Assembly (NCBI RefSeq): GCF_018977255.1
Contig: NW_024704762.1
Span: 7,874,001 to 7,938,000 of the forward strand
DNA length: 64,000 bases
Source of the DNA: Callorhinchus milii
Lineage: Eukaryota
Direction: 5' to 3'
Each line of letters starts with the position of its first letter. The first letter of the stretch is position 1. Made by a program: the position numbers and the translations under genes. A model generated the notes under the pieces. It searched no databases. It had not been told where the DNA came from and saw only the letters and a list, made by a program, of their open reading frames with translations. Below are positions 2,955 to 49,458 of the stretch, one piece after another.

Positions 2955-2993
<39 letters not shown>

Positions 2994-3297
2994 CCTTGCA
3001 TTTGATATAGCGCTTTTCACGTCGGGAGGACGTCCCAAAGCGCTTCACAGAATATACTGTAAAGTGAGTTGACTGTATATTTGTGGGCGAACGCGGCAGC
3101 CAATTGCGCACAGCAATGTCCCACAAACAGTCGTAGATTGAAAATGACCAATTTATTATTGTTTTGTTTTGGAGGGATTATTATTAGGCTCTGTGTGGAG
3201 TAAGGAAACTTGCCCAAGGTTTCGCCCTCTGCCTGGATTTGAACTCAGGTCTCTCACTTGCAAAGCGAGTGCTCTAACCACTGAGCTACAGGACTCC
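2955..3297 (-). mobile_element. Full-length tRNA-derived Deu-domain SINE with L2-like tail
   Basis: Head GGAGTCCTGTAGCTCAGTGGTTAGAGCAC (A box), GAGTTCAAATCC (B box), Deu core TGCTGTGCGCAATTGGCTGCCGCGTT, tail ...AGCGCTATATCAAATGCAAGG(ATT)n. Confidence 0.85.
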
Positions 3298-8785: not shown

Positions 8786-10049
8786 GAGTGGCGTTTTCCC
8801 TAATTCTCTTCCCTCTTTCCGCCCACCATATCCCAGAGCAAGATCAACGACCCACAAGGTCTTTCATATTCCATCTGTAAAAGGGTCAAAAAGATAACAG
8901 CATTCCCCCTTCCTGCCCATTTGTACATGGTGTAAGTCACTGTAGTGGTAATGGCAGGACATTTTACATGTTACAGTGATACCACCTGCTGGTCATTTCC
9001 TTATAGCACCATTTCTTCTGGCCATAATGAGATGCAAACGTCATGAAAATATTTCAACAGTTGGCCTTAAAAACCTCTCCTTGACAACAGTACTTCTCCC
9101 CTGGCAGTGGGTAAAGCACTGAAGGTTTTGAATCTCATTCAGTGCTGAGTTCACTGATCTGAGCTGGGGTGACAGTCTGGCTCAGGAACTCACACTCTTG
9201 CCTCTGAAATTGTGGGTTCAAGCCCCACGTTGGGACTTTGAGCTCGCAGTCTTGGCTAAGGCTCCAGCACAGTGCTGGGGGTGCGCTGCATTGTCAGAGA
9301 CGGCATTCTTCGTCTGAGACGTTAAACCGAGGTCCCATCGGTACCTGTTCAGATGGACAATAAAGATCCCATGCCACCCCCCCAGATAAAATTGGACAAT
9401 TATTTCATAGTTGTTTGTGGGACATTGCTTGGTGCAAATCGGATGCTGCATTCAATCGTACTCTCAGCCACTATGACCCGAATCTCAGGAACTCCTTCCC
9501 ACGATCCCTCCGTCTTGTCCCCTCTCTGTGTGTCTTCAAGTCACACCCATAGACTTTCCTCCCCGATTGTGCTTGTGGTCACCTTCCCCACCCTCTCTTC
9601 CAGCTTGGCATCAAGCTCTCCGCTGTTACAAAACAGCGCTATCTGTGTGAACATCAACAATAATCCTTGCGTTTGATATAGCGCCTTATCACGTTGTTCG
9701 AAACGTCTCACAGAATATACTGCGAATTGAGTGAATTGAATGTGAACAACAATAACAACAACAGCAGCAGCTTTCCACATCGGGTGTGTGTGTGTGTGGG
9801 GTGGGGGGGGGGTTGGGGAACGGACATCCCAAGTCACATATAAATGCAAGTTGTGGTTGTTGTGTCACTTATGAAACACACAGTCACCACACTCGACATT
9901 AATTCCCGCAAAGCGTTTGGAGATTTTTTTTTAAAAAAAAGGACGGGATGTGGCGTTACATTACATATCATACGTTGCATTGGAGATATATATATAATGC
10001 ATATATTGTATATCACACACTACAGCCCAGTTCTCATAAAGCCCTTTGC

Positions 10050-10360
10050 AAGTTGGAGGGCGGCACTCAGTTCAGGCGCTGCGCGGCTGATTGATTGACA
10101 GCGAAACCAGGGGCAACCGTGGCCGGGCCGCCAATCCCGTTTGCGGCGCCTGGCCAAAGTGTCGTGAAGTCAGTGGGGCCGGGCCTGCCAGCGGTGTCGC
10201 AAAGCGGGAGCGACGGTCGGGTTTCGCCGCCTGGCGTTGCGATGGCGACTTCGGCGCTGTGCGGGGGGACAATGAGCAGGTGCGGCGGCGGCGGCGGCGG
10301 GGCGGCCCCGGGGTGGGATGGCGGAGCGGGAGAGGCCGGGGATGAGCGGCCTAGACCTGA
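10050..10360 (+). promoter_or_regulatory. CpG island promoter and exon 1 of NR2C2AP
   Basis: CpG-dense stretch with CCAAT at 10131-10135 and (GGC)n. It contains the ATG at 10242. Confidence 0.75.
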
Positions 10361-12695
10361 CACTTAGCTTCTGTAGCCTCAGGATATGGGGGGGCGGGGA
10401 GGGGGGGGCGGGGGGGGGGAGGGGAGAGAGACTGATGTCAGGGCCAGTTGGGAATCAGCCAGAAAATGGCTCTTTTGGGGATTAAAATGTTTTTTCACAA
10501 ACTCCCAATCTTCTTCTTCCCAAACTTGGGTTGGATGTTTGTCCGGGGGGTGGGGGTGAGGTGGGGGGTGGGAGGCCAGGGGTTGGGGGTTGGTGGGGTG
10601 GGGGAGGGGAGGTCAGGGGTTGGGGGTCTGCACCTACCCATTGGGGTTGGCGGTTGGGGGGGTTGGGGGTCTGCACCTACCCATTGGGGTTGGCGGTTGG
10701 GGGGGGGGGGGGGGAGTGGGTCGGACACCATCCCCAGCTTTCAGCCACCGCGCCCCAAAACTCGGGAACTCTCTCCCTCCCCCCCCCCCCCCCCCCCCCC
10801 CCCGATCCCTCCGCCTTGCCCCCGTCTTCCCCTGTCGGGTCTGAAGACCTTCCCCTTTGACCGTAGCTGAAGGTCACCTCCCCCACCACCTCCGGTTCGG
10901 CTTCGTGCTCCTCCGCTCGAGCGCTCCGGCACACTACCCCGGGGTGAGGGCCGCGAGATACATGCTTGTTGTTGTTGTTGTTGTCGTCTATGTGTGTGGA
11001 CATGAAAGTATTTTACCACCGAAAGCAGAATAAGTGAAGGTTGGATGGGTGGATGAGGTGACGATGAACTGCAGATCTCTTGGTGGATAAAGCCCAAAGA
11101 ATCGGGAGATACCCAGGCTCCTGGGTATAGGCACCCCATCGACCTGCAATCTCCCAGGGAGGGTCGCTGGTTCACCCATAGACTGTGTGGCCCGCAAGGC
11201 CCTGACTTTCATTTGTCTCCTGATTCAGGGTGAGCTCGGTCCTCAATCGAGATGTGAAGCAGTTTGGGAAGAAGTTTCTCTTTGACCGTAATGAGGAGAC
11301 CTGCTGGAACTCGGACCAGGTATTGTGAAGCGTGGAAGGAGGTAGAGGTCTCCTGTAGACCGGAACAGTGTGGCTTTAGTTATAAGGAATGACTGGATGA
11401 CTTTGGTGTCAGCTTGACTCAATGGGTAGGACTCCCGCCTCTGGTTCAATAGGTTGTGAGATCAAGCCCCACGTTGTGATACATAATCTAGATTGACAGT
11501 CAAGCTCATTACTGGTGAGGAGATGTCGGTATTGTCAGAGGTGACATCCTTCAGATGAGACACTAAACTGAGGTCCGATCTACTTTCCTAGTTAATATTT
11601 CTCCCTCATCCGAAATTCACTGGTAAATGAAGTACTATGATGAGTTTTTTTGTATAATAATAATTATCCTTGCATTTTATATCAGGACATCTTGAACAGC
11701 TTCACAGGATATACTGTAAAGTGGAATATTTTGTGGGTAAATGCCAACATTCCTTTCATCTTGGTTGCTGTGCCAGATTAGTTGCTATGTTTGTCTGCAT
11801 AACAGACACTCATCATGTGAAGTGGTTTTAAGGCATGATGAGGCACAGCGTGAAGTCCTGGCATTGTTCTATTTGGTATTTTTATTTTAGCTTTTTATCA
11901 TCACTGCACTGTGCACAATCTGTCTCTCTCTGTCTCAGGGCTCCTGCCAGTGGGTGCTGCTCGAATTCCCTCAGCCCGTCAAAGTAACCGAACTCCACAT
12001 CCAGTTCCAGGGCGGCTTCGCTGGAAGATTGTGCAGACTCGAAGGTGAGTTACCTGTATTAACATCCATTCCTCCCTTCCCCTTTGTCTTCTCTTCCACC
12101 TTCCACCTTACCTCTCTGTCCTCCATCTAGTGACATTCACAAATGTGCACTTAATAATAACGATCCTTGCATTTGTTATCTTGCCTTATCATGGATCGGA
12201 CATGTTTGCTCATCACACTTTTCCTCTTTGGACAGAAATTCAGCAGTTGCTTCTATCGCTGTGACCTTTCTGATATTTTGCCTGTTTCCCGATGGCTCAG
12301 TCTGCATGTCTTGTCTCCTAGGAAATGAGAATGGAGGTGATCTGGCAAAGATAACTGAAATCTACCCTGAGGACACCAACCGACTACAGATATCCTTCTG
12401 AGTTGGGGTGGCCGTGTTTTATGTAGTGAGAATGGGGTTGTGGTCAGTAATATTTTATATAATGATCCGAGTCTAGTAGACTAGATGACTGGTGAAGAGA
12501 CCCATTAGCATAGACTTGATGGGTGAGTGTCTGTAACATTTCCACAGTCTTTGTCCTTGACATGTAACTCACTGCTTCACCATCACTGAAGAGCCAAGAG
12601 TTGCAAAACTGAAGCTCGTCTTTGAGAACAGCTCAGACTTCTTTGGCCGGATTGTTATTTACCACCTCGATGTCCTTGGTGAAAAATTGCTTTAA
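10242..12695 (+). CDS. NR2C2AP: Nuclear receptor 2C2-associated protein (TRA16), 5 coding exons, 141 aa
   Basis: Exons 10242-10279, 11229-11319, 11939-12044, 12322-12389 and 12573-12695 join in frame (426 nt): MATSALCGGTMSRVSSVLNRDVKQFGKKFLFDRNEETCWNSDQGSCQWVLLEFPQPVKVTELHIQFQGGFAGRLCRLEG...YPEDTNRLQCFTI...FENSSDFFGRIVIYHLDVLGEKLL*. This matches vertebrate NR2C2AP as recalled. Introns 1-3 are GT-AG; intron 4 is AT-AC. Confidence 0.95.
12390..12572 (+). other. U12-type (minor spliceosome) AT-AC intron of NR2C2AP
   Basis: 5' ATATCCTT at 12390, branch consensus TCCTTGAC at 12554-12561, terminal AC at 12571-12572. Removing it restores the frame and the homology. Confidence 0.92.
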
Positions 12696-20189: not shown

Positions 20190-21270
20190 TACCTTCCGCC
20201 TGTCCACTGGAGAGAGGGGGAAGCCATTGCTCCGCTCCCTCTGCAAACACTTAATAAAGAGCACTAAAAGGGGCAGAACCTCTCCCCCCCCCCCTCCTCC
20301 GCGCCTGGTTTGCGCGGCCCACCTAACTCGGGTGCTTCCGGTAGCGATTGGCAGCCCCAGGGGCCAATCGGGGCGGCGCATTCCACTCCACGGCCCAATC
20401 AGCTCTGAGCGGAGGCGGGACTAACTGCAATCAAGTTAGGTGGAGCTGTTGCATCTACATCCGGTGAATTAACATCCGCCCCCCCACCGACCGACCGACC
20501 CCGCCGCCTCCCGCCTCCCTCTCCCGCTACCATCGATTGTCGTAGCCTTTTTTAAAACGTGTTTCAGCGGCCTGTGAGTTGAGGGGAAAGGGGGCGCGGG
20601 GTTTAGTCGCGATTAACCGCCTCGCCAGCCTGAGCCTGGCGCATGCGCGCTCGCCTGCAAATCAGGCGCAACCAACCGGGAGAGGGGGAGGGAGATGGAG
20701 CGGAAGGTCAGAAACCCGTCACCAACTCTGATTCGATTTATCCCTTTTCGATTCCAACCCTCTCAATAAGAGACGACAACGCACTGTTGTTTGTGGGCGC
20801 ACTTCTGCGGGTTGCGTCGAAACGCTCTTCATTGTAACAGATGCAGCATTTTCCGTCCCCTCGATTGCCAATGGTTGAGCTCGGGGCGGGGGGGAGGGGT
20901 GTTTATCAGGGAGTGGGGAGGCGGGTTCACAGGTTCTGAATGACTGACAACCGGGGCAGCCAATAGGAAGGGAGCAGAGTGGGCGTGGCCTGATTGCTGG
21001 ATTGTGATTGGCCTGAATGCGAGAAGGGGCGTTCCCGTTGGCGGAAAGCTCTGGGCGTTGCAATTGGAGGAGCGGTGGCGGGAGGGGCGGGGTTTGTTTG
21101 AACGAAACGCGGGTACAGCTGTGGCGACGACGCAGCCGCTGTGCAGAGGGTCGACTTTGGTGGTGGGGTCAGTGTCTGCGGTTGTGTCGGGGTCGGGGTC
21201 GGGGGGTAATGGAAGCCGAGAGACTGGCCCGCAACCTTCACCACGCCGTGGAGGAGGAAGAAGCCGAGTA
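20190..21270. promoter_or_regulatory. Bidirectional CpG-island promoter region, RFXANK (-) / ANKLE1 (+)
   Basis: CpG-rich, with several CCAAT/ATTGG boxes (~20346, 20363, 20394, 20868, 20960, 21007, 21062), ETS CTTCCGG (~20335), NRF1-like GCGCATGCGC (~20639) and GC boxes. A minus-strand donor at ~20192 suggests a non-coding RFXANK exon 1. Confidence 0.75.
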
Positions 21271-24200
21271 AGTGATCCTCCGGAGCTTTTGATCATAGGG
21301 GTGTACAGCACCGAAAGAGGCCATTCGGCCCATGGTGTCTGTGCCGCTCTTTGAAAAAGAGCTTCCAATTCAACCCCACTCCCCCCGCGCTCTCCCCATA
21401 GCCCCGATCAACCCCACTCCCCCCGCGCTCTCCCCATAGCCCCGATCAACCCCACTCCCCCCGCGCTCTCCCCACAGCCCCGATCAACCCCACTCCCCCC
21501 GCGCTCTCCCCATAGCCCCGATCAACCCCACTCCCCCGCGCTCTCCCCATAGCCCCGATCAACCCCACTCCCCCCGCGCTCTCCCCATAGCCCCGATCAA
21601 CCCCACTCTCTCCCCACAGCCCTGATCAACCCCACTCCCCCACTCTCTCCCCATAGCCCCGATCAACCCCATTCTCTCCCCACAGCCCTGATCAACCCCA
21701 CTCCCCCGTTCTCTCCCCATAGCCCTGCAAACTCGTCCTCCCCAAATAATTATCTACTTCTCTCTTGAAAGTTGTTATCGAATCGGCTTCCACCAGCCTT
21801 TCAGGCAACGCATTCCAGATCCCAACAACTCGCTGTGTGAAAACATTTCTCCTCACCTTCCCTCTGTTTTCTTTTAACAACTATTTTAAATCGTTGCCCT
21901 CGGGTTAGCGACCCACCCGCCAGTGGAAATAGTTTCTTCTTGTTCACCCTATTGAATCCCTCATAATTTTGAAAGCTTCTATTAAGTCTCCTCTTAATCT
22001 TCTCTGCTTCAACGACAATAATCCTAGCTTCGCTCGCTTCTCCTGATAAATGAAGTCCCTCATTCCTGGTAAATCTCCTTTGCACCCTCTCCAATGCTTT
22101 GACATCCTTCCTTAAATGTGGTGCCCAGAACTGAGCAGTCTCCAGCTGAGCCCTAACCAGTGTTTTATATAAAGGTTCATCATAACTTCCTGACTTTTGT
22201 ATTCTATGCCCCTGTTTATAAAGCCTAGTATCCTGTATGCTTTTTTAACAGCTTTATCTACCTTTTTCAGCGCCTTGGAAGGTCCTCCTGACGTGAAAGT
22301 AATCTTGTTGTTGTTGTTGTCCTGCCACCTTCAAAGATTTACTTATATGAGCCCCCAGGTCTCTCTGTTCCTTCACCCCCTTTAAGATTCTAACATCAGT
22401 TTATATTGGAGGACGTCCCAAGGCGCAGGACAATCAGTGTTTTGGACCTGAGCTGGGGTTTGCCATCGGGGCGGGCGGGGGGGAAAGGAGAGTGACCAAA
22501 GGCACGGTTGAAGAGGAGGGTCTTGAGACTGGTCTTGGAGGGGGCGAGACAGTGGGACTGCAGGATGGAGTTCCAGAGGGTGGAAGCAGAGTGGCTGAAG
22601 GTCCGCCTGCCAATGGTGGGGTGGGTGAGGGGGGGACATGAAGCAGGCTGGAGCCCGCTGAGCAGAGATAGCGGGCAGGTTGGTAGCGCTATCATATTGA
22701 AAGCTATATCTGCTGTCCGTGTAGTAATTGATTTTGTAGGCAAATACAACAGCTAATGCTGTGGATGACTTAATTTGGTGGTGGGGGTGGCGGGGGAATT
22801 GATGGCTAGGACACTGGGAGAAACTGATAGGCTACCATTCTGTTTCTGAATGATGCTGTGTAATATTTCATCTCCACTTTAAGGAGCGGATGAGACCTCA
22901 ATTCAACATCTTGATCTGAAGGACGACACAATATTGAATACAAGGAATATTATTATTTACCTCGGTGACCTGCACCAAAGCAGTGTTCCCCCAGTTCTGC
23001 ATTGGAGTGTCAGACGAGCCTATTTATTTAAGCCTAACTGTTAATCAATACAGGGTTTATCCAGAGAGGAAACGTTCTGTTTGAGTCAAGTTCTCCAAAG
23101 CATCTTTTTTATTTTGTGAATTTGAAGAGATTGCTAGAAAAAGATTGTGTGAATGCAATTGCGATTTCTTTTTTGTGTGAATCTCACTGGCTCAGCCAGT
23201 AAATGGATCGCTCATGACATTGAGATATATGGAACAGGTCAATAAAAAATCTGTGCTGGTTTTCAACTTGGAATGACAGTATAGTAATAATAATAATAAT
23301 AATCCTTGCATTTGATATAGCGCTTTTCACGTCTTCGAGATGTCTCAAAGCGCTTCACAGAATATACCGTAAAGTGAATTGACTGTATATTTGTGGGCGA
23401 AACTCGGCAGCCAATTGCGCTCAGCAGTGTTCCCACAAACAGTCATGGATTGAAAATGACCAATTTTATTATTGTTTTGGTTTGGAGGAATTATTATTAG
23501 GTGTGTAGAGTAAGGAAACTTGCCCGAGATTTTGCCCTGCCTGGAATTGAACCCAGGTGGCTCGCTTGCAAGTCAAGTGCTCTAACCACTGAGCTACAGG
23601 ACTCCGAATACAATTTATCTCTGTATAGTGGGTCAATTTGGCTTTCACACAATTCCCCCCACCCCCACGGCATTCGTCCACGACGCTAACACATGACTGA
23701 CCGCTCAAACAGAACCGTTGGGTGTTTGGTGCCTGTGGAATTCAACCCAACCTTCAGGCAAAGAGCGAAGACTGTTTTCTTAAAATAAAGAGAAAACCAT
23801 GCGATTTATACAAGATTCATATTTTTGCCTTGGAGTGTTTGCAAAATAGAGTGCTCCTTGTTTGGTGTTATTTTTGGTGGGTTGGGGGTGGGGGCAGGAA
23901 TGCCATTTGTCTAAGTCGTGTATAGAATTAATTTTGAGTGATTTGTTGTGGAAGAATTTAGAATTACGTATTTGCCACGAAAAAAGCCCACCCTGAAATC
24001 ATCATGCTGTAGCTTTGGAATGCAAGTGCTTCTTTGGTTTTGTTGAAATGTTTTCTACAATCTTGATACATTTTCTTTTGAACCCAAGAAACTTGAGCTG
24101 AAGGGTCTGTCTGTAGTGCAGGTTCACCGAAGTTAATAATAATATTCCTTGTATTCAATATTGGGCCTTATCACATGAAAGTGCCTCACAGAATATACTG

Positions 24201-26292
24201 TAAAGTGAATTGACTGAATATTTTGTTGGCAAAATATCAGGTTGGTTGGAAGGGGTTAATGGTCTCCCTTCTGCACGAACCAATGTTACATCCTCTGTGT
24301 TTGTCCGACTGATAAACTTTAGTCACTCATTTCATGGCTAATTGTGGGTCATTACTGTGTGCAAATTGGCTGCCACGCTTGCCTGCATTTATACATTTCA
24401 CAGTAAAATCCTGTCAAGTGCTTTGAGATGCCTCAGCGATATGATAAGGCACTGCATCAAATGTAAAGATTATTATGATTTAAGTAGGACTATTTGGGCT
24501 TTGGCACACTTGTCAACACCTCCCAGGTCTCCCGGATGAGCTCAGGTGCAAGAAAGGGTTAAATTCCTAATGTTTTTCCACCTCTCGCCCTTTCCCCAGA
24601 TCTGTGGAGCGATGGTTACGGAAGAATGCAGACCCCAATCTGGTGTTACCAGAGGGTCTCGCAGCTGTGCATTTGGCATCCGTGAAGGACACAGAAGGTG
24701 GGCTCAAATGCTTGAAACTGATCCTTCAACACCAAGGAGATCCTAACCTCGGGTGAGCAACAGCTCCTTGTCCCCAGAGTTGCCTTCGTTTGGTTTATGC
24801 AGACAAATTGTAGGGACGCGCTACATATATATGTGTGTGTGTGTCTCCCGTGTCTGTGTTTATAACACAAACGTCTCGTTGGTTTGCATAGAACGGTGGA
24901 GGATCTCACCCCACTCCACATAGCTGCCTCCTGGGGCTGTCTTAAGAGTTTAAAGTTGTTGCTCAGATATGGAGGGGATCCGAGCCTCCAAGACCAGGTA
25001 GGGGTTCCTGCGCAGGCGCTGGGTAGCTTCGAGGTTGAACGTAACGCCGACGACAACTTGTATCAGACATGCACCTTTCACGCCAAAATAGAAGTCCCAA
25101 AGCACGTACATACTGTGAAGTGAATTTTTATATTGGCAAAGGCAGCAACAACCCATTAAAGGACGTTGCCCACAATTCGCCCACAAAATTTACAGTCAAT
25201 TCACTTTACAGTATATTCTGTGAAGCGCTTTGAGACGTCTCGATTCATAATAAGGCGCTGTATCAAATGCAAGGATGATTATTATTATTCTTGAAGCACC
25301 TTGAGCCGTTTCGACCGTTTGATGAGGCGCTGTATCGAATGCAAGGGTTATTATTAATAATGAGATGAGCGGCCAGCTGACTTGAAATTGGGGGGGAATT
25401 GGGTTATTTCTGAGTGTTGGACTGATGCCTTTTTGTGCTTCACGTTGCACCTAGGATGGAATGAAACCGGAAGATTTGGCTGAAGAACAAAAAAACATGA
25501 AATGTGTTCGGATTCTCAAGGAATATCGACAGCTCAGCCTGAACCAGGAGCCTCTGGATGTCTCCCCAAAGCACCAATATGGTCAGTCGGAGCTTTTTTC
25601 CTTTACAAAGGCACAGATCCATTGGCTTCTGTGTCAGCCTTGACAGTTCATTCAACCGCAGGAGACTTTAGCCCCAATCATGTCTTTACCCGGCGACAAC
25701 AACGACAACTTGCATTCATATCGTGCCCCTCACGCGGGGAAGCATCCCAGTGTGGGCGTGGACCTGCCCCTTACTGGAAGGTGGGGTTCGGTCTGGGTGA
25801 CGGTCAAGAAGGAAGCGAGATCTCTGGTTTTCGCTCGGGTTACTGCGACCCACCGGGGCCCCGATTACCGCCCCGACCGGGATTCAACTGAACCCAGTCG
25901 TTTCGGGGGCAGCGAGCGTAAGCGATCGGGATCCTCCTCAAATTCTGGGGACATTCAGCCAAACCGGATCCCAGCCTCGAAAGCGCTCGACTCTTTAGCC
26001 TTTGGCGATGAATTACTGCTCCACAAAAGAATAATTTCAATCCGCGAAAGAAAAAAAAAAAAAAATCTTTTGTGGGTTTGAATAGCTTTTCGAGGCACTC
26101 GACTCAACTCTTTCGGGTGCGGCAGCGAGTGAGTGGCAATGCCTGAGGTCGGCCACTGGGGGGCGCCACGGGATCTGTATTGAATCACAGTGCTGAGCTG
26201 CAGTGCCCTCTCCCCCCTCGTACAGCGCCACCCAGTGGCTGCTCTGGGCAACTGCAACCCCCTCCGCTGGTTATGATCCCCCCCTCACGTTT

Positions 26293-26323
<31 letters not shown>

Positions 26324-29300
26324 CGCATTGGTTATAGAGCGCTTTTCACGTCGGGAGGACGTCCCAAAGCGCTTCACAGAACACACTGTAAAGTGAACTG
26401 ACTGTATGTATTTGTGGGCGAAGGCGGCGGCCGATTGCGCACAGCGATGTCCCACAGACAGTCGTGGGTTGAAAACGGCCGATTTATTACTGTTTTGGGG
26501 TGCGGGGGGGGGGGGGGGGAGGAGGGGTTATTATTAGGGCTCCGTGTGCGGAGTGAGGAAACTCGCCCGAGGGTTCGGCCCTGACCCGCCGGGGATTGAA
26601 CGAACGAACCCGGGTCTCTCGCTCAAAAAAGCGAGTGCTCTAACCCCTGAGAGAGCTGCGGGACTCCACGGACCCCCTCTCTCCTCTCTCTCTCTCTCTC
26701 TCGTCGTCGGGGGTCTTCCCCGCGAGACGCCTGGAAGCGCTTCAGGGGGCGCGTTACCGCCAAGCGGATCGCCGCGGGCGTCGTGCGGGGGGGTGGGGGG
26801 CAGCGGGGGGGGGGGCGTTGCGAGTGCTCAGACGGAGCCCCGCGTTTCGCCCCCACGGAGTGTGCGGCCGGCGGTGGGGGACGCCCCGGGCCTGAGAAGC
26901 GCTTGGAAACGCCCCGAAGACGTGACGTGGGGCTGTTATCCCCCAATGCAGTTATTATTATTATTATTATTACTACTATGATTACTACTATTATTATTAC
27001 TACCACCAGTGGCAGCTTCACCACCACCACCACCACCAGTGGACGGGCGGCCGCGCTTCTTCACCGATCCAACCGAGAGCCTCGCAGTTTCCCCGCCGCC
27101 CCGGAGCAACGGGGGAGGCGGCACCGTCAGCAGCAGCGGCGGCGCCTCGGGAGAGACCCGGTCTACAGGACCGCGAGCCCCGGGACCGGACGGCCAGACT
27201 CACACTGACGACCGCGGGACACTGCCCGACACCAGCACCGGTACCGGCACCGCCCGGTGTGACTCCCCCGAAGACCGGGCTTCTCTGAGTGGACTTTCGG
27301 CGGCGGCGGCCGAGGACCGGACACCGGGGCCGCTCCGGCCTGACCCGCGCGCCGCCGCAAACGGCCGCCTGTCCGAACCGGTGGACGCGTCTCTGCTCCT
27401 CTTCGACGACGAAGGCGACGGCGCGGCCAACGGCCGGGACTCCCCCCCGAGCGGCGACGGCGACTCGGACAGCAGCTCCGAGCTGTACGCCAGCGCGGTC
27501 GAGGGCCTCAATGTCAGCCCGGACCCAGGCCCCGCCGCGGGGCGAGAGGGGACCCCGGGCCGAGGCGGCGGCGGCTCCGGCCTCGCGGTGCTCCTGAGGA
27601 AGGCGACGTCGGACCCGAAGAGGAGAGAGAGTGAGTTCGAGCCGTCGCCGCCGTCGCCCGTCTCCTCCTCCGCCTCCGCCGTCACCCCGCGCTCCGGCCG
27701 CCGCGATTCGTCCCTGTTCGACCGGCCCGTGCCCGCCCCGGCGAGGGTCCGGCGGGTCCGCAGCCCCCCAAGGGCGGGGGAGGGAGGGAGACCCGTCGTC
27801 CCCTGCCGCCGCCACCACTCCTGGGACGGCCGAGGGAGCGACGAGGGGGTGGACGGAACGCCGCTCTCCCGCTCCTCCTCGTCGGGGCTCGAGGAGAGTT
27901 ACCCGGACACGGTCCCGGTCGGGGCCGCGGTGGCGGCTGAAGCGCTCGAGGGTCACCGGGTGACTGTCCGGAGCCCCCGCGGGGGTCCGGGCGGAGACGA
28001 CCGGTGGGACGACGACACGTGGCTCACGGAAATCGGTGGCGACGAAGACGGCGGCGGCGGCTCCCGGTGCCCCGCGCTGCCCGACCCCGAGGGCTGCCCG
28101 GTGCCGGTGGACCGTCCCCCGGGGCAGGAGGCGGGGGGGCGGGGGTCGAGCGGCCGATCGCCTCCCGCCGACCTCCTGTCCAACAGCCGCCTCCGCCTCC
28201 GGCTCCGGGACCTCGGGGCAGACCCGGGGCCCGTCACCCGCCTCACCAGGAACGTCTACCTCCGGCGCCTCAACCGGTTGGTCGCGGAGCCTCGGGCCCC
28301 GCGGCGGCGGCCTCCAAAAGCGGGTACGTCAATGGGGGCTTCACACCCCTCACTCACACTCACTCACTCACACCCCTCACTCACACTCACTCACTCACAC
28401 CCCACACTCACACTCACTCACTCACACCCCCACTCACACACTCACTCACTCACCACTCACACTCTCACACCCCCCACTCACTCACTCACACCCCCCACTC
28501 ACACTCACTCATACACACTCACACTCACTCACACTCACTCACTCACACCCCCCACTCACTCACACTCACACCCCTCACACTCACTCACACCCCCCACTCA
28601 CACTCACTCACTCACCCCCCATTCACACTCACTCACACTCACACCCCCCACACTCACTCACACTCCCCCACTCACACTCACTCACTCACACCCCACACTC
28701 ACACTCCACACACACTTACACACTCGCACACAACTTTCTTTGGACGACAGGCCCAAGATGCTGTTGGTTGGTCCTATTTGATTCGGCTCAAGATACTTAC
28801 CGGTGGTTTGCGGTGGGAGATATCACAGCCCAATCCTCTCCCCCGGGGACACCTCTCAGCCTTTTTGGGGTGGGCAGTGGTTGGGGGGGGCAGTGGTGGG
28901 GGAAAGGAGAATTCTCAACGTAACTATTCCTGAGTAACTAAAATGACTCGTTTCGCCGCAGAGTTCAGCGCTGAGCTTTGTCGGAGTCTTGAGACCTTCG
29001 TGATCCCGGATTGCAGACAGGATGAGCTGATACTGTCCCAGCAGTTTGATCAGCCAGACCAGATTCGCCGGTGGAGAGGGGGCCTTGTCAAATCCAGCTT
29101 CAACTACCTGCTGCTCGACCCCAGGTCCTTGTGGCTGCCTTGTCCCGTTCAGCTATCCCGTGTGTGTCCCCCCAACCTCCACAATGTTGCCCGTCTCCAT
29201 CACTAACTCTCCCTTCGGGCCACCAAGACCCTTGTCCAAGCTTTCATCACGTCCAGACTTGACTACACTAACTCCCTGCTCGCCGGACTTTCTAACTCTT

Positions 29301-30952
29301 CCCTCCACAGGCTGCGGATTATTCAGAACTCTGCAGCCCGTGTCCTTTCCTGAACCAGGCTCCGTGACCTGACCACCCCCAGCCCCACCCTCACCCTCAC
29401 CCGGCTCCACAGCCTCTCGAACCTCTGCTGTTCTCTCGCATTTACTTTTTATTTGAGAAAGAAACTGAAGCTGTAAATTCAGTTTCATGTTGTTAAAGCG
29501 GTGTCGATTTGAGCAGGAGGTATGTTGTGTTTCACGTCCTCCCGATGTGAAAGGCGCTCTATAAATGGAATCTTGTTGTTGTTGTTGTTATGGATTGATT
29601 GATTGATTGATGGATGGATTGATGGATTGATTTTTTNCCCCAGAGTGACTATGAACCTCCCGGCTCGGTCTCACGCACTGAGCGACGATGACTGTTTCCG
29701 CATTTTTGTCAACGCCATCTTCTACGTGGGGAAGGGCAAGCGCTCTCGGCCGTACAGCCATCTCAACGAAGCTCAGAAGCATTTTAACAACGTGCGAGCA
29801 CAGGTACGGAGTCATGAAATTCCACCTGCTCTTAGCCTGTCGGAGGAGTATGAAGTTCCCTTCAGAACGCTGGCTGTTTTTGCAAACTATGACATTCTGC
29901 TCCTCAGTTTCCCAAATTGGGTTCCCCTTTTCTCCCCCCGACCCCTCCCGCCCACCCGCCCACATATGGCGAGTGAACTGGACAGAGAGTGACATCAACA
30001 CACTTTTTGTCTTGGGGTTGAGCTGGTCAGCAACTCAATGACAAAACTGGGGCTTTTGTAGGATAAGGTCAAAAGTTCCTTATATGTTTGCTTAAAATCC
30101 TCTCTTTTTCTCTCCTTGTTTGCTTTCTTTCTTTCTCTCCTTGCTTGCTTGCTTTCTCTCCTTCCTTGCTTTCTTCCTTGCTTTCTTTTTGTCTCTCTCT
30201 CTCTCGCTCCCTCCCCCTCTCTCCTCTACAGGTGAACAGTAAGTTACAGAGGATTATGGATATCTGGGCAGATGGCCTGGGAGTCATCTCTCTGCACTGT
30301 TTCCAGAATGTAATTGCTGTCGAGGCCTTTACCCGGGAGGCCTGCATGGTCGACGCACTGGGTAAGTCACCTATTTCTTTATCACTCCCCCACTCCCCCC
30401 CCCCCCCACACACACACACACACACAGTGCAAGTCCATGTGGTTCAATGGCTGACTTTGGTGTAAATTTTAACGTGGGAATGAAAAGCACAACTTGGGTC
30501 CAATGTGTGTGAGAAATACAAACGGCCTTTAGATTTGTTGGTGGGGGGGAGGGGGTGCAAAGCAAGAGAATAGGACTAAAGGGGCAGCTAACAAGGACTC
30601 GATGGGCCAGTCCTGTATTGTACATTTCTATGTCCCCATGGAGTTCCAGCCATGGAAGCCATTCAGCCCCTCGAGCCTGTTCTGTCATTCTATGCGATCA
30701 TGGCCGATCCGTACTTCGACTCCAATTACCCATGATTTTTTGCTGCTGTCCTGGTTTATAAACCTCTCCTCCTCCTCGCAAACCACACTAGGGTTACCGA
30801 AGCTGACAAACCAGAAGAGGGGCGATTACTACGGCACTGTGGCCACGTGGACTATGAAACGCAGGCGGCAGCTGGGGGTGCACCTCATACGCCAGGCCTC
30901 CCTCATCTTCCTGGCTGAGGGCGAAAGGCAGCTCCGACCCGCGGACATCTAG
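21209..30952 (+). CDS. ANKLE1: Ankyrin repeat and LEM domain-containing protein 1 (GIY-YIG endonuclease, LEM-3 ortholog), ~9 coding exons
   Basis: Exons 21209-21267, 24600-24752, 24892-24997, 25455-25581, ~27010-28323 (acceptor uncertain; 27016, 27040 and 27088 are also in phase), 28962-29124, 29644-29803, 30232-30361 and 30792-30952. Ankyrin repeats ([18 protein letters not shown]; [13 protein letters not shown]), LEM motif ([32 protein letters not shown]), GIY-YIG part ([11 protein letters not shown]...[15 protein letters not shown]...[14 protein letters not shown]...[11 protein letters not shown]). Confidence 0.93.
21296..22265 (-). mobile_element. 5'-truncated CR1 LINE (ORF2 C-terminus plus 3' UTR) in ANKLE1 intron 1
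   Basis: Degenerate ORF2 peptides [10 protein letters not shown] and [37 protein letters not shown] are typical of the CR1 C-terminus. Confidence 0.85.
21370..21728. repeat. Minisatellite, ~10 units of 29-38 bp (TCAACCCCACTCCCCCCGCGCTCTCCCCATAGCCCCGA)
   Basis: Direct tandem units with no unique spacers. Confidence 0.92.
22395..22680 (-). mobile_element. L2 LINE 3' fragment
   Basis: [18 protein letters not shown]...[13 protein letters not shown] is an L2 ORF2 C-terminal motif, followed by the L2 tail. Confidence 0.7.
23283..23605 (-). mobile_element. Full-length Deu tRNA-SINE
   Basis: A/B box head, Deu core and (ATT)n tail. Confidence 0.85.
26293..26667 (-). mobile_element. Full-length Deu tRNA-SINE with strongly GC-shifted sequence
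   Basis: Colinear with the copies at 2955-3297 and 36285-36596, but with many A/T->G/C changes. Confidence 0.85.
28340..28730. repeat. (CACT/CACACT/CACCCC) low-complexity tandem repeat in an ANKLE1 intron
   Basis: Read directly from the sequence. It produces the spurious His/Thr-rich tail of ORF 27009-28781. Confidence 0.9.
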
Positions 30953-36068: not shown

Positions 36069-39000
36069 TTACTTGTTTTCCGCAGCTTCTTCCATCTCTG
36101 GCTCAGTCTCTGACTTCTGACTGGTGCTCATGTCAGGCTCCCACAGCAGGAACTCATGTAAGAGTGTGTTGACAGTCTCCGGACACTCCATCATCACCAT
36201 GTGACTGCCCTCCTCGATGACTTTCAAAAATGCGATCAGTAAGATCTAACGAGGCAAACAAAGCTGAAATCAGCGGTGTGGAGTTAATAATAATAATAAC
36301 AATAATCCTTGCATTTGATATAGCGTTTTTCACGTCGGGAGGACGTCCCAAAGCGCTTCACAGAACACACTGTAAAGTGAATTGACTGTATATTTGTGGG
36401 CGAACGCGGCAGCCAATTGCGCACAGCAATGTCCCACAAACAGTCGTAGATTGAAAATGACCAATTTATTATTGTTTTTGGTTTTGGAGGGATTATTATT
36501 AGGCTCTGTGTGGAGTAAGGAAACTTGCCCAAGGTTTCGCTCTGTCTGGAATTGAACTCAGGTCTCTCACTTGCAAAGCGAGTGCTCTAACCACTGCCGT
36601 AGTGTACTGGTTAGAGCACCCCTCGCAAGCGAGAGGACCAGGGTTCGATTCCCGGGCAGGTCAGGGCGAAAGCTTAAGTTTACTTACTCCTCACACACGC
36701 CAATGTTTACCCAGCAATAAGTAGGAACCCGGGTTGTTAGCCGATTGGTGCATCGCTTTTCTGGGGGTAATGATCCCTATAATAATAAGTTTATTAAAAA
36801 ATAATAATTATATATTTTAATACCAAATAATAATAATCGGGTCACTCAATCCATGACTGTCTATGGGACGCTGCTGTGTGCAATTGGCTGCCACGTTTCG
36901 TCCATAAAATATACAGTCAACTCACTTTACAGTATATTCTGTGAAGCGCTTTGAGACGTCTCGAAGACATGATAAGGCGTTATATCAAATGGACTATTAA
37001 TATTATTATTATGCATGAGCTTCTTCCCCTTGCGAGTGGGCAGGGTGGGGGTGGAGATGGGAAGTGGTTGTATGAAGAGGGATTCTCCACACTTCCAGGT
37101 CACTAACTTCGCTGAGTCGAGCGGTCAAACAGTGAACGTCTGATGGCAAAGATGTTTCTCTTACCTCTGCCATGCGTTGGTCTTCATCGATGGGAACAAA
37201 CTTGTCGTGCATCCCGTGCACCAACAGGACAGGAACGGTCAGCTCAGCGTGATACACCTCGTCTCCCTCCGGCCAGTACTGACCATTCATCATCGCCCTC
37301 AGCACGAACGACGAGACATTGAAGGCGTTCCCTTCCTTCATGAGCTGCTTCTCTTTGGCACCTTGATGCGCAAATCCCGCTCTGAAAGAAAAGTGGGGAG
37401 AGACCGCTTTAGAGCAGCGGTAGCCAACACGTGGCCCGCGGGCCGGATGTGGCCCACGGGACCAGCCATGAAGAAGCAGCCCTTCCAGAACATCCGCACG
37501 AGTCTAGGTAAGTCCGTGTTCGATCGGTCGTGTATTTTCAGTTTTTTTTCTTGATTTGATTTGTGGCGTAAATCAAGAGATATTCAAATCAAGAAAATTC
37601 AACCATAAAGGTTGGCCACCACTGGCTTAGAGCAAGGGGGGGAATAATAATTGTAGATGCAGCCTCCCCACATAGATGGTGTCTGTTTTTCTTCTCCAAA
37701 ATCCCTTCCTATTATTCCTTTTCTCCCAACCTCAAACTCCTCTTAAAACCACCTCCTCTCTCTCTCTCTCTCTCTCTCTTGGCGATGTATTTGGTCATGA
37801 CCCTCAAAATCTTCCTCTCCTCCCCAATTTGGCGCTCGCTCTTGCCTGTACAACAAACCCTTCGATCCATTCAGTCTACATACCAGTGGTGGTGTTACTG
37901 TATAAACGTTATTGTCGGTACGAATGGTTTGGGTCTAAGCTCATAGACTGGTAAATGTAGGAAAAGGGGGAAATCTGGAACACAAGAGGAGCACAGGTTA
38001 TTATAATAATAATCCTTTACATTTGATACAGTCGGGAGGACATCTCAAAAACACTTCGCAGGATTTACTGCAAAGCGTAGTGACTGGTATCTCGCAGGCA
38101 CTAGTTGTACGTGTGTGAAATGAGACGGTTATAGCGAATGCAACCGGCGTCAGCTTAATCTTCCCCCAAACAACTTACTTAAGGAAACTCCAGAGGAGGC
38201 AGGGGGAGAGGCAATGCAAGACACACGAGGGCAGGTTGAAGATGGAGCAGAGACTGGGTTCCAGGGCAGTTGGCCCCCCTCCATTTATCATCACCAGTTT
38301 GTGCACCTGATCAGGGAACTCGTGTGCTAGGAACGTGCAGAAGGAAACCCTGGGGAAAGGAAAACAGAAAGCGGCTCAAACCCGGGTCTCCCAGAGGAGA
38401 AACGTACATTAACTCGTCGTTTTCCGGGGGTAATAATTCCTTCCTAAAAAAAATAATAACAATAATAATTTGGTCACTCAATCCACGGCTGTTTGTAGGA
38501 CGCTGCTGTGCGCAATTGGCTGCCGCGTTTCGCCCACGAAAAACATACAGTCGATTCACTTTACGGTATATTCTGTGAAGCGCTTTGAGACGTGATAAGG
38601 CACTATATCAAATGCAAGGATTATTTTTATTAGGAACTCACAGAGGCCAGCAAGGCTGGGTCTGTAGGCGTCTGTGAATTCAACGGTCAACAAGAAAGAG
38701 GGAGCGCACGGTACTTTGCCCGTAATTATAATAGTAATCATCCTTGCATTTGATACACCACCTTATTGTGTCTTCGAGATGTCTCAAAGCGCTTTACAGG
38801 ATACACTGTAAAGTGAATTGACTGTGTATTTTTGTGGGTGAAACAGCAGCAGCAGCCGATTGCCAATAAGTGACCAAATTTATTGCATACATTGTAAAGC
38901 GGATTGATTGTCTTTGGAACGTCCTCCCGACGTGCCATGAGAGGCGCTAAAGAAATATAATCTGCTGTTGTATCTTGTGGGCGAAAAAAAAATAGCACAG

Positions 39001-48199: not shown

Positions 48200-48560
48200 A
48201 AGGCTGTGAACTACAACTCCCAGAATGCACCGGGCGGGACGCATGCGCGTCGTCCAAAGCGACGCGTCGGTAAGGCGGCGTTTGATTGGTTGAGGGCGGG
48301 GCGGGACTGTAGCAGCGACCAATGGGACGGCGGGATACGAGAGGACGCGGCGTTGGGCTGCAAGATGGCGGCGGTCTGCAGGTACCCAAGTCAATGAGGG
48401 GCCGGTGGCGCCCATCCGGACGTCTCAAAGCGCTTCCCCGGGTCAGGCTGCCAAGTGTAGTGACTGTGTCATTTGTGGGTGGAAGGCGGCAGCCAATGGC
48501 GCCCAAACGGGTCGCGGGTTGGAAGTGACCGGATTTTATTCGGGTGCCGGTGTCGGCCCG
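48200..48560 (+). promoter_or_regulatory. MRPL34 CpG-island promoter
   Basis: ZNF143-type motif ACTACAACTCCCAGAATGCAC at 48210-48230, NRF1-like GCATGCGC ~48241, ATTGG/CCAAT, Sp1 GGGCGGGGCGGG, and YY1 motif CAAGATGGCGGC overlapping the ATG. Confidence 0.8.
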
Positions 48561-49458
48561 GATCCCCCATCCCCCCCCACACACACCCCCCCCCGACCCC
48601 ATCCCCCCCCACACACACACACCCCCCCGACCCCATTCCCCACCCACACACACTCCCCCGACCCCCCCCACCCACACCCCCCCCCCCCCCCCCCCCCCCC
48701 ACACACACCCACCCCATCCCCCCCCAAACACTCCTCCCCGACCCCATCCCTACCACACACACACACACCCCCGACCCCACACACTCACACACACACACAC
48801 CCCCCACCCCGACCCCACACACACACACACACCCCTCCGGCTCAGCGTTAAGCTCTCCACTGTTAAGCGCTCCGCTCCGTAACTCTCACCCGTGTGCAGG
48901 AAATATAACCGCGAGTTTTTGTTAGTGGGACGTTGCGAGTGCCAATTGGCCGTCGCGTCCGCCTACGAAACACGCAGTCACTACCTTTCACAGTAAGTCG
49001 CTGTGACGCAGTTTGAGGTGTTTCGACGTTGTAGCCGCTGTCAACAACGCGAGCAATTTTATTATGATTGTTATTACTATACACAGAGGTAAAAAAATCA
49101 AGCTTTAAAACTCCCGATTCCTTTCTGTAGGTACCTGCTGACCCGACCTCCAGCCCCTGCCTCATCCTTCAGCTCCAGCCTGCGGGCCGTGTGCGGCTCC
49201 GCTCTATTCCGCCCATCGGTTGCCTCCCGCGCCGACCTGCCCACCTCGGCCGGCCTCCTCCAGCGTCTGACCGGCCAGCTCTCCCCCTGGTTCCCACAGC
49301 AGCAGCAGGTGAGGACCAGGAAGCGCGGCACAGAATACCAGCCCAAGAACATCAAACGCAAGCGCACGCACGGGTGGATGAAGCGGATCAGCACCCGGGG
49401 TGGCATCGAGGTCATACTCCGGAGAATGTTGAAGGGACGCAACTCATTGACACACTGA
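48365..49458 (+). CDS. MRPL34: Mitochondrial ribosomal protein bL34m, 2 exons, 114 aa
   Basis: Exon 48365-48381 (MAAVC R|) plus 49131-49458. An N-terminal targeting-like peptide is followed by the L34 signature [44 protein letters not shown]. Confidence 0.95.
48565..48835. repeat. C-rich/(CA) tandem repeat (CCCCGACCCCA...CACACACAC) in the MRPL34 intron
   Basis: Read directly from the sequence. Confidence 0.85.

What the first reader, a model, noticed from the sequence alone, without database searches (positions are those of the whole stretch)
25680..28330. Localised AT->GC substitution hotspot (candidate GC-biased gene conversion) recorded by SINEs and extending into the ANKLE1 linker exon
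Seen: by manual alignment, the SINE at 26293-26667 differs from its near-identical sister copies (2955-3297, 36285-36596) by roughly 20 substitutions that are almost all weak->strong. Examples: GGCAGCCAATT->GGCGGCCGATT, CAAACA->CAGACA, GTAGAT->GTGGGT, AAATGACCAA->AAACGGCCGA, GTAAGG->GTGAGG, CTACAGG->CTGCGGG. A second SINE remnant (~26820-26990) is even more GC-converted. The adjacent 1.3-kb exon is extremely GC/CpG-rich and encodes a Gly/Ala/Arg/Pro/Ser-loaded linker, while flanking exons have ordinary composition. Non-CpG changes and agreement of the two sister copies argue against simple CpG preservation. Inference: an intragenic recombination hotspot has reshaped the protein composition and created an orphan CpG island.
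Basis: partly seen in the sequence, partly recalled or inferred. Interest (0 to 1): 0.7.

Follow-up and report, generated by a model that had tools for sequence, protein, structure and literature searches.

The report
GC-rewritten ANKLE1 exon in elephant shark
In the elephant shark's ANKLE1 gene, a roughly 3-kb stretch has had many A/T letters replaced by G/C in its repeat copies, and the large exon inside it encodes an unusually Gly/Ala/Arg/Pro-rich linker, likely because biased DNA repair at a long-lived recombination hotspot overrode weak selection, a process known from dogs, birds and gerbils.

Summary
Observation confirmed, and larger than reported. The window is Callorhinchus milii ANKLE1. 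Against 29 copies of its own sub-lineage, the SINE at 26311-26669 has 32 A/T->G/C, 4 G/C->A/T and 1 GC-neutral change; sibling means are 3.1, 5.2 and 2.4 (p=3e-9). No GC-rich subfamily explains it. Two older remnants nearer the exon have about half their A/T sites replaced. The spliced 1314-bp exon has GC3 0.85, close to the SINE's equilibrium GC of 0.87. Its linker is the most GARP-rich of 113 orthologs, while the domains are ordinary. The same shift occurs at CpG islands across the genome, and this scan has noted it before on other contigs. Best reading (0.7): GC-biased gene conversion at a stable, CpG-island-type hotspot. Recombination and methylation were not measured. A tiny polymorphism sample shows no GC skew, and 'the hotspot created the island' is shown only for the intronic edge. 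In passing: this genome holds several PRDM9-like copies with an SSXRD motif, so PRDM9 loss cannot be assumed. Known process, new lineage, striking protein effect.

The parts
26311..26669 (-). Young SINE copy (tRNA-like head by eye, (AAT)n tail; sub-lineage with a 3-bp insertion), rewritten A/T->G/C
   Evidence: 32 W->S, 4 S->W, 1 GC-neutral against 29 siblings; 15 of 18 young-subfamily diagnostics
26700..26800 (-).
   Evidence: 25/43 W->S, 2/38 S->W; score 47.5 against shuffle maximum 39
26815..26970 (+). Older SINE tail remnant in the opposite orientation, heavily GC-shifted
   Evidence: 27/59 W->S, 3/52 S->W; score 61.5 against shuffle maximum 44.5
25690..25800 (-). Older SINE tail remnant at the upstream shoulder
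   Evidence: 16/45 W->S, 4/37 S->W; alignment weak beyond the first 50 bases
25285..25360 (+). SINE tail in intron 3 with a mild shift; outer edge of the zone
   Evidence: 8/35 W->S, 4/27 S->W
26152..26239 (.). Convergent pair of CTCF-like core motifs (26152-26166 +, 26225-26239 -) at the upstream edge of the island; motif recalled, binding untested
   Evidence: 3 matches in intron 4 against a mean of 0.037 in 1000 local shuffles; 3 in the whole window, which 9 of 100 shuffles reach
26351..28450 (.). Intragenic CpG island by sequence criteria, 5-7 kb downstream of the ANKLE1 promoter island
   Evidence: GC 0.71, CpG o/e 1.05 over 26401-28330
27010..28323 (+). ANKLE1 exon 5: shortened disordered linker plus LEM domain
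   Evidence: Spliced contigs; GC1/2/3 0.75/0.68/0.85, LEM part GC3 0.97; linker GARP 0.477
21209..30952 (+). ANKLE1 coding span, 9 exons: 21209-21267, 24600-24752, 24892-24997, 25455-25581, 27010-28323, 28962-29124, 29644-29803, 30232-30361, 30792-30952
   Evidence: Open frame after joining; exons 2-9 covered by one spliced contig; exon 1 from sequence and protein P0002 only

Best explanation
A roughly 3-kb zone of ANKLE1 (about 25250-28330) shows a strong one-way A/T->G/C substitution bias in its repeats and a matching GC-rich exon, likely produced by GC-biased gene conversion at a long-lived recombination hotspot sitting on a likely unmethylated intragenic CpG island. Shown: W->S changes run about 10 times the sibling mean, while S->W and GC-neutral changes are not raised; both strands, transitions and transversions are affected; young and old repeats are affected; exon third positions sit near the equilibrium the SINE predicts; the linker, but not the domains outside the exon, has moved to GC-rich codons. 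Inferred: germline hypomethylation, meiotic breaks here, mismatch repair favouring G/C, and a population-scaled strength B of about 10 or more if the copy is of average sibling age. Also inferred: new CpGs persist, widen the island into the intron and may reinforce the hotspot, and the weakly constrained linker absorbs the resulting amino-acid changes.
For: Class-specific acceleration: W->S 32 vs mean 3.1; S->W 4 vs 5.2; GC-neutral 1 vs 2.4; transversions 6 vs 0.8; A>G 16, T>C 10 (strand test p=0.24). Non-CpG changes alone p=0.001 (L166 included). Equilibrium GC 0.87 against exon GC3 0.85. Local: bins 26001-27000 have 36/175 W->S and 4/120 S->W; 29001-30000 have 7/87 and 14/112. One SINE copy beside a promoter elsewhere is changed at 27/73 W sites in its near 140 bases and 4/94 beyond (L142), which no subfamily can explain. 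Equilibrium GC is 0.57 within 200 bp of CpG-dense patches (18 fragments) against 0.40 far away (766); 9 of 12 GC-shifted copies against 5 of 59 controls have such a patch nearby. Linker GARP is the highest of 113 orthologs, 6.2 SD above the value its own domains predict. Polarised replacements: 19 towards GC-richer codons and 3 away in exon 5, against 7 and 18 elsewhere, p=9e-5. Long exons as such are not GC-extreme: BRCA2 GC3 0.30, APC 0.39-0.43, APC2-like on the same contig 0.60, BRCA1 0.60. Same signature at dog CpG islands (PMC4350167, passages).
Against: No recombination or methylation data. Polymorphism shows no G/C skew: by hand from the listed rows, the G/C allele is 23 of 44 observations at 8 exon SNPs and 16 of 35 at 7 SNPs in 25576-26135; these are unpolarised, few, linked, and 118 rows were not shown. 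CpG retention in the copy is weak evidence alone (0 of 26 sites lost against a mean of 1.6). Several young copies near CpG islands are barely shifted, so an island is not sufficient. CpG-creating sites change faster (16/45 vs 16/117), and GC-shifted copies share changes more than background rates predict (217 vs 91+-11); query selection explains part of that, but not demonstrably all. Linker alignments are uncertain, and the ortholog set (120 best of 737) is mostly fishes; an unnamed 542-aa ortholog has an equally GARP-rich short linker, with GC-shifted domains too. PRDM9 appears present with SSXRD. A single-locus GC* is imprecise (bioRxiv 2023.11.17.567540, Discussion).
Confidence: 0.7

Rival explanations
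1. Selection for GC and CpG maintains and widens a functional intragenic island (hidden promoter, enhancer or insulator); recombination plays no large part.
For: A convergent CTCF-like pair sits at the island's edge; CpG-creating changes are enriched; selection gives the same W->S fixation pattern.
Against: Half of the changes are non-CpG and include transversions inside repeat sequence. No CCAAT, NRF1-like or YY1-like motif lies in the 3 kb around the copy (motifs recalled). No alternative start is seen in RNA-like contigs, though contigs cannot show starts. It would need strong selection on most A/T sites of a SINE.
Confidence: 0.08
2. A local mutation or repair bias in open, unmethylated germline DNA raises A/T->G/C mutation without biased fixation.
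For: The bias follows CpG islands; no G/C frequency skew in the small SNP sample; excess at CpG-creating sites and shared changes among copies.
Against: Loss of methylation removes CpG decay but does not raise W->S tenfold (established knowledge). No strand bias, so not RNA editing of the SINE or transcription-coupled damage; not enriched at WA/TW sites (11/83 vs 21/79), so not a polymerase-eta pattern.
Confidence: 0.1
3. Successive PRDM9-directed hotspots happened to hit this place; the island is a by-product.
For: PRDM9-like copies with SSXRD, PR/SET and variable zinc-finger arrays are in the genome.
Against: Young SINE, old remnants and exon are all shifted, which needs long persistence; the three highest W->S bins in the window are all CpG islands. 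Baker et al. found no testis expression of the gene (PMC5519329, passages).
Confidence: 0.08
4. The copy belongs to a GC-rich SINE subfamily, or took GC variants from other copies by ectopic conversion; the exon is simply a low-complexity linker.
For: GC-shifted copies share a 3-bp insertion and several changes with the focal copy.
Against: That insertion marks 1637 pattern matches, and the 29 examined are A/T at these sites. The best full-length match to the copy is 82-84% (only 40 of 5262 candidates were scored). Within-copy gradient at L142; older remnants of other subfamilies are shifted too.
Confidence: 0.04

Closest known systems
gBGC at CpG islands of dogs after PRDM9 loss (Berglund et al., PMC4350167; passages read)
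   Same: Raised W->S substitution and equilibrium GC at CpG islands; islands grow through GC gain.
   Different: Here read from SINE copies, without a recombination map; the island is intragenic and covers a coding exon; PRDM9 does not look lost.
PRDM9-independent hotspots coexisting with PRDM9 in placental mammals (Joseph et al., bioRxiv 2023.11.17.567540; abstract and Discussion read)
   Same: gBGC signal at hypomethylated islands in species that keep PRDM9.
   Different: A cartilaginous fish, outside the amniotes studied there; single-locus strength is high; methylation not measured here.
Runaway GC evolution in gerbils (Pracana et al., PMC7403616; abstract read)
   Same: GC-skewed substitution strong enough to change proteins.
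   Different: Gerbil regions are megabase-scale with all mutation classes raised; here about 3 kb with only W->S raised.
Hotspots of biased substitution in human exons (Berglund, Pollard, Webster 2009; seen only as a reference title, content recalled)
   Same: Single exons with clusters of W->S amino-acid changes.
   Different: Those are short episodes in a PRDM9 landscape (recalled); this zone looks long-lived and near equilibrium.

Membership tests
gBGC substitution hotspot | W->S excess over S->W against a matched neutral background | tested here: met
   32:4 against 90:151 in 29 siblings, p=3e-9
gBGC substitution hotspot | GC-neutral changes not accelerated | tested here: met
   1 against a mean of 2.4
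gBGC substitution hotspot | Both strands, transitions and transversions, non-CpG sites | tested here: met
   A>G 16, T>C 10, T>G 5, A>C 1; non-CpG p=0.001
gBGC substitution hotspot | Non-coding and coding sites shifted alike | tested here: met
   SINE GC* 0.87; exon GC3 0.85; exon polarised at protein level only
gBGC substitution hotspot | Derived-allele frequency skew towards G/C | tested here: inconclusive
   23/44 and 16/35 G/C observations, unpolarised, linked, from contigs
gBGC substitution hotspot | Raised recombination at the site | not testable with these tools
   No map or raw population reads
CpG-island ('default') hotspot, dog/bird type | Bias tied to CpG islands genome-wide | tested here: met
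CpG-island ('default') hotspot, dog/bird type | Germline hypomethylation | tested here: inconclusive
   CpG o/e 1.05; 0 of 26 CpG sites lost against a mean of 1.6; indirect
CpG-island ('default') hotspot, dog/bird type | Long-lived position | tested here: inconclusive
   Young copy, older remnants and exon are all shifted; no sister species
CpG-island ('default') hotspot, dog/bird type | PRDM9 lost or disabled (dog and bird case only) | tested here: not met
   PRDM9-like exons on 9 contigs, SSXRD on 8 of 9; KRAB-SSXRD-SET-ZF in order on C969; function and expression untested
GC-rich SINE subfamily | Many copies sharing the GC changes by descent | tested here: not met
Orphan CpG island | CpG island away from an annotated start site | tested here: met
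   26351-28450, 5-7 kb from exon 1; a hidden start is not excluded
Orphan CpG island | Unmethylated and H3K4me3-marked in some tissue | not testable with these tools
   A liver methylome exists (PMC5437953, passages); locus data not seen
Gerbil-type high-GC region | Megabase clusters with all mutation classes raised | tested here: not met
   About 3 kb; the 264-kb neighbourhood has GC* 0.45

The most novel reading that the evidence does not exclude
Elephant shark keeps an amplified, apparently complete PRDM9 family yet recombines so strongly at unmethylated islands that a self-reinforcing hotspot has formed inside a coding exon. GC gain builds CpG, CpG keeps the DNA unmethylated and recombining, the island spreads over intronic SINEs up to a CTCF pair, and the exon has been both recoded and cut to about 40% of its ancestral length, losing a motif kept in most fishes.
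Probability: 0.2. Interest if true: 0.65.

Novelty: new member of a known kind. Interest (0 to 1): 0.42.

Why it matters
It extends CpG-island-linked GC fixation bias to a cartilaginous fish often used as a slowly evolving reference genome, and shows it strong enough to recode a protein region. Such exons can mislead selection scans and phylogenies. The very abundant young SINE works as a built-in neutral probe, so the bias can be mapped genome-wide without a sister genome. With the PRDM9-like copies seen here, the species becomes a test of whether PRDM9-directed and island-directed recombination coexist outside bony vertebrates.

Tried and rejected
GC-rich subfamily: rejected. The shared 3-bp insertion looked like support until its sub-lineage proved A/T-rich; partial hits of 89-94% over the first 180 bases were not fetched. 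RNA editing, transcription-coupled and polymerase-eta patterns: rejected by strand and context counts. Assembly artefact: rejected for the exon; the SINE itself was not separately confirmed, because repeat contigs swamp it. Long-exon effect: not supported by BRCA2, APC, APC2-like and BRCA1 (4 genes only). CTCF as driver: CpG-poor CTCF-like sites elsewhere show no shift within 300 bp (GC* 0.43, 14 fragments). The pattern was written to include the two local sites, so their presence among 84 matches is circular; a stricter pattern with an upstream motif found 1 match. The gradient inside the focal copy (4/54 vs 28/108, p=0.006) is not used as proof, because other shifted copies also change less in their first 100 bases. 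Allele-frequency skew: inconclusive. No holocephalan ortholog of the linker was found, so no DNA-level polarisation of the exon. No Rfam match in 25500-29000. No listed run is on record as RNA; spliced joints identify the contigs as transcripts. Insertion-biased conversion was considered (9 insertions, 0 deletions in the copy) but the comparison set was chosen by similarity to the copy. Supplements of Baker 2017 and Cavassim 2022 were not opened and may list PRDM9 copies.
Full report
Setting. The translated exon matches only ANKLE1 of Callorhinchus milii, at 100%. The window lies at 7.87-7.94 Mb of a 10.7-Mb contig, C21. ANKLE1 runs on + from 21209 to 30952 in nine coding exons that join to an open frame. 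One spliced contig covers exons 2-9. The database model P0002 uses a longer first exon and a different exon-6 start than the spliced contigs show. The exon in question, 27010-28323, is matched by DNA contigs of three further samples with 0-1 differences.

The SINE. A mixture model of 897 fragments from 1.06 Mb chosen by position gave subfamily consensuses of 45-49% GC and placed the copy in the youngest group. Of 61 young near-full copies it has 22 W->S changes; the next has 4. Copies retrieved with it shared a 3-bp insertion and several GC changes, which could have meant a GC-rich lineage. A pattern for that insertion matched 1637 places, and the first 30 by position are A/T at those sites. 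Against 29 of them (L166 dropped as misaligned) the copy has 32 of 162 W sites changed, 4 of 140 S sites and 1 GC-neutral change; sibling means are 3.1, 5.2 and 2.4 (p=3e-9). So it is not older or more mutated in general; only W->S is about tenfold up. Both strands and transversions take part, and WA/TW contexts are not favoured. Equilibrium GC is 0.87 against 0.34. CpG-creating sites are hit more often (16/45 vs 16/117). The literature differs on whether gBGC is stronger at CpG sites (no: PMC4510005, abstract; yes: bioRxiv 2020.09.25.313411, abstract); persistence of new CpGs in unmethylated DNA would also do it (inference).

Extent. Older remnants between the copy and the exon have 25/43 and 27/59 W sites replaced, and upstream remnants 16/45 and 8/35. 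A repeat pile-up over the window gives 36/175 W->S against 4/120 S->W at 26001-27000, and 7/87 against 14/112 at 29001-30000. The zone is therefore about 25250-28330; its downstream end is bracketed only between 28330 and 29150. The CpG island runs 26351-28450. A convergent CTCF-like pair lies at its upstream edge, but CpG-poor sites of that kind elsewhere show no shift.

The exon and protein. GC1/2/3 are 0.75/0.68/0.85, and the conserved LEM part has GC3 0.97. The linker is collinear with that of sharks and coelacanth but about 400 residues instead of 950-1120. It lacks an EYLYTD block found in 112 of 120 hits and absent from the window. Its GARP share, 0.477, is the highest of 113 orthologs and 6.2 SD above the value its own domains predict. 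Replacements polarised with sharks and bony vertebrates go 19 up and 3 down in codon GC inside the exon, and 7 and 18 outside; linker alignment is uncertain. Four other long exons are not extreme. Against uniqueness: skate and alligator linkers are also raised (0.39, 0.41), an unnamed short ortholog reaches 0.476 with shifted domains, and ABHD8 nearby has GC3 0.83.

Genome-wide context. The other two W->S peaks in the window are promoter islands at about 10100 and 48300. At L142 one SINE is rewritten only in the 140 bases nearest a promoter. Equilibrium GC rises from 0.40 to 0.57 near CpG-dense patches, and is higher on small contigs (0.44-0.45) than on the largest (0.33-0.34). Earlier notes of this scan report the same at other promoters of this genome; they are leads, not support.

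PRDM9. Baker et al. list the elephant shark gene as KRAB-SET, slowly evolving and not expressed in testis data (PMC5519329, passages); Cavassim et al. count it as complete (PMC8892340, passages). In this genome SSXRD and PR/SET hits fall on the same small contigs. The SET exon is closest to solved PRDM9 (74 bits against 43 for PRDM11), SSXRD passes the Pfam cut-off and KRAB is weak. Nine contigs carry the SET exons and 8 of 9 the SSXRD; C969 has KRAB, SSXRD, SET and 8 fingers in order, though two SET-exon motifs were not found there. Arrays of 4-8 fingers are 91-93% alike in DNA, with 38-65% of amino-acid diversity at positions -1, 3 and 6 (own rough measure). Several arrays are frameshifted, and copies may be haplotypes or assembly redundancy. 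PRDM9 loss therefore cannot be invoked. Coexistence of both hotspot kinds is common in mammals.

Mechanism and limits. Shown: local, class-specific, strand-symmetric W->S excess; its link to CpG islands; the exon's composition. Inferred: hypomethylation, recombination and biased repair. Against: G/C alleles are 23 of 44 and 16 of 35 observations in the listed SNP rows, with no skew, though unpolarised and linked. Whether island or hotspot came first is open, except that the SINE-derived edge is new (14 to 29 CpG).

Novelty. The process is known from dogs, many mammals and gerbils. A search for 'gc-biased gene conversion' with 'elephant shark' listed 8 papers, none on this by title or abstract start (listing only); 'ctcf' with gBGC, PRDM9 and hypomethylated gave 0. 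Verdict: new member of a known kind, interest 0.42.

Noticed in passing
G000 contigs C668, C969, C936, C1362, C1143, C737, C1226, C1096, C1419 (L277-L301): Multi-copy PRDM9-like family with an SSXRD motif, SET exons closest to PRDM9 and differing zinc-finger arrays; KRAB, SSXRD, SET and fingers in order on C969, and a further KRAB downstream of the fingers on C1143 and C737. This differs from the KRAB-SET description in Baker 2017. True copy number and expression unknown.
   Followed up: partly
window 48380-48560 and 48920-49064: SINE remnants in the first intron of an MRPL34-like gene, just after its promoter island; the first is GC-shifted (25/73 W->S, 2/63 S->W).
   Followed up: yes
window 10001-11000: Promoter-type CpG island (NR2C2AP-like gene, name recalled from a peptide) with a W->S excess in nearby repeat (8/40 against 1/56).
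   Followed up: partly
window 26152-26239; L245:4702-4784: Convergent CTCF-like pair 73 bp apart; a similar convergent pair 68 bp apart lies on C29.
   Followed up: partly
window 27010-28323: The linker has lost about 60% of its length, including an LSPGGRP...EYLYTD...YDW block kept in 112 of 120 hits; function of the block unknown.
   Followed up: partly
window 27010-27270: Cluster of 8 SNPs, a 6-bp insertion and a likely poly-proline length variant in the first 260 bases of the exon, against 2 SNPs in the remaining 1050.
   Followed up: no
L142:3982-4555: One SINE copy rewritten only on the side facing a promoter, a clean internal control.
   Followed up: yes
L205, L196-L198 (C4:71.02-71.05 Mb): BRCA2 repeat exons occur twice about 18 kb apart, one set in shorter open frames: tandem duplicate or assembly redundancy.
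   Followed up: no
L001-L030: GC-shifted SINE copies share W->S changes more than background rates predict (217 vs 91+-11) and show more insertions than deletions; selection by the query confounds both.
   Followed up: partly
P0041, P0096, P0095, P0108, P0126: ANKLE1 linkers of thorny skate, crocodilians, a python and an unnamed species are also GARP-rich; this exon may drift to GC repeatedly.
   Followed up: partly
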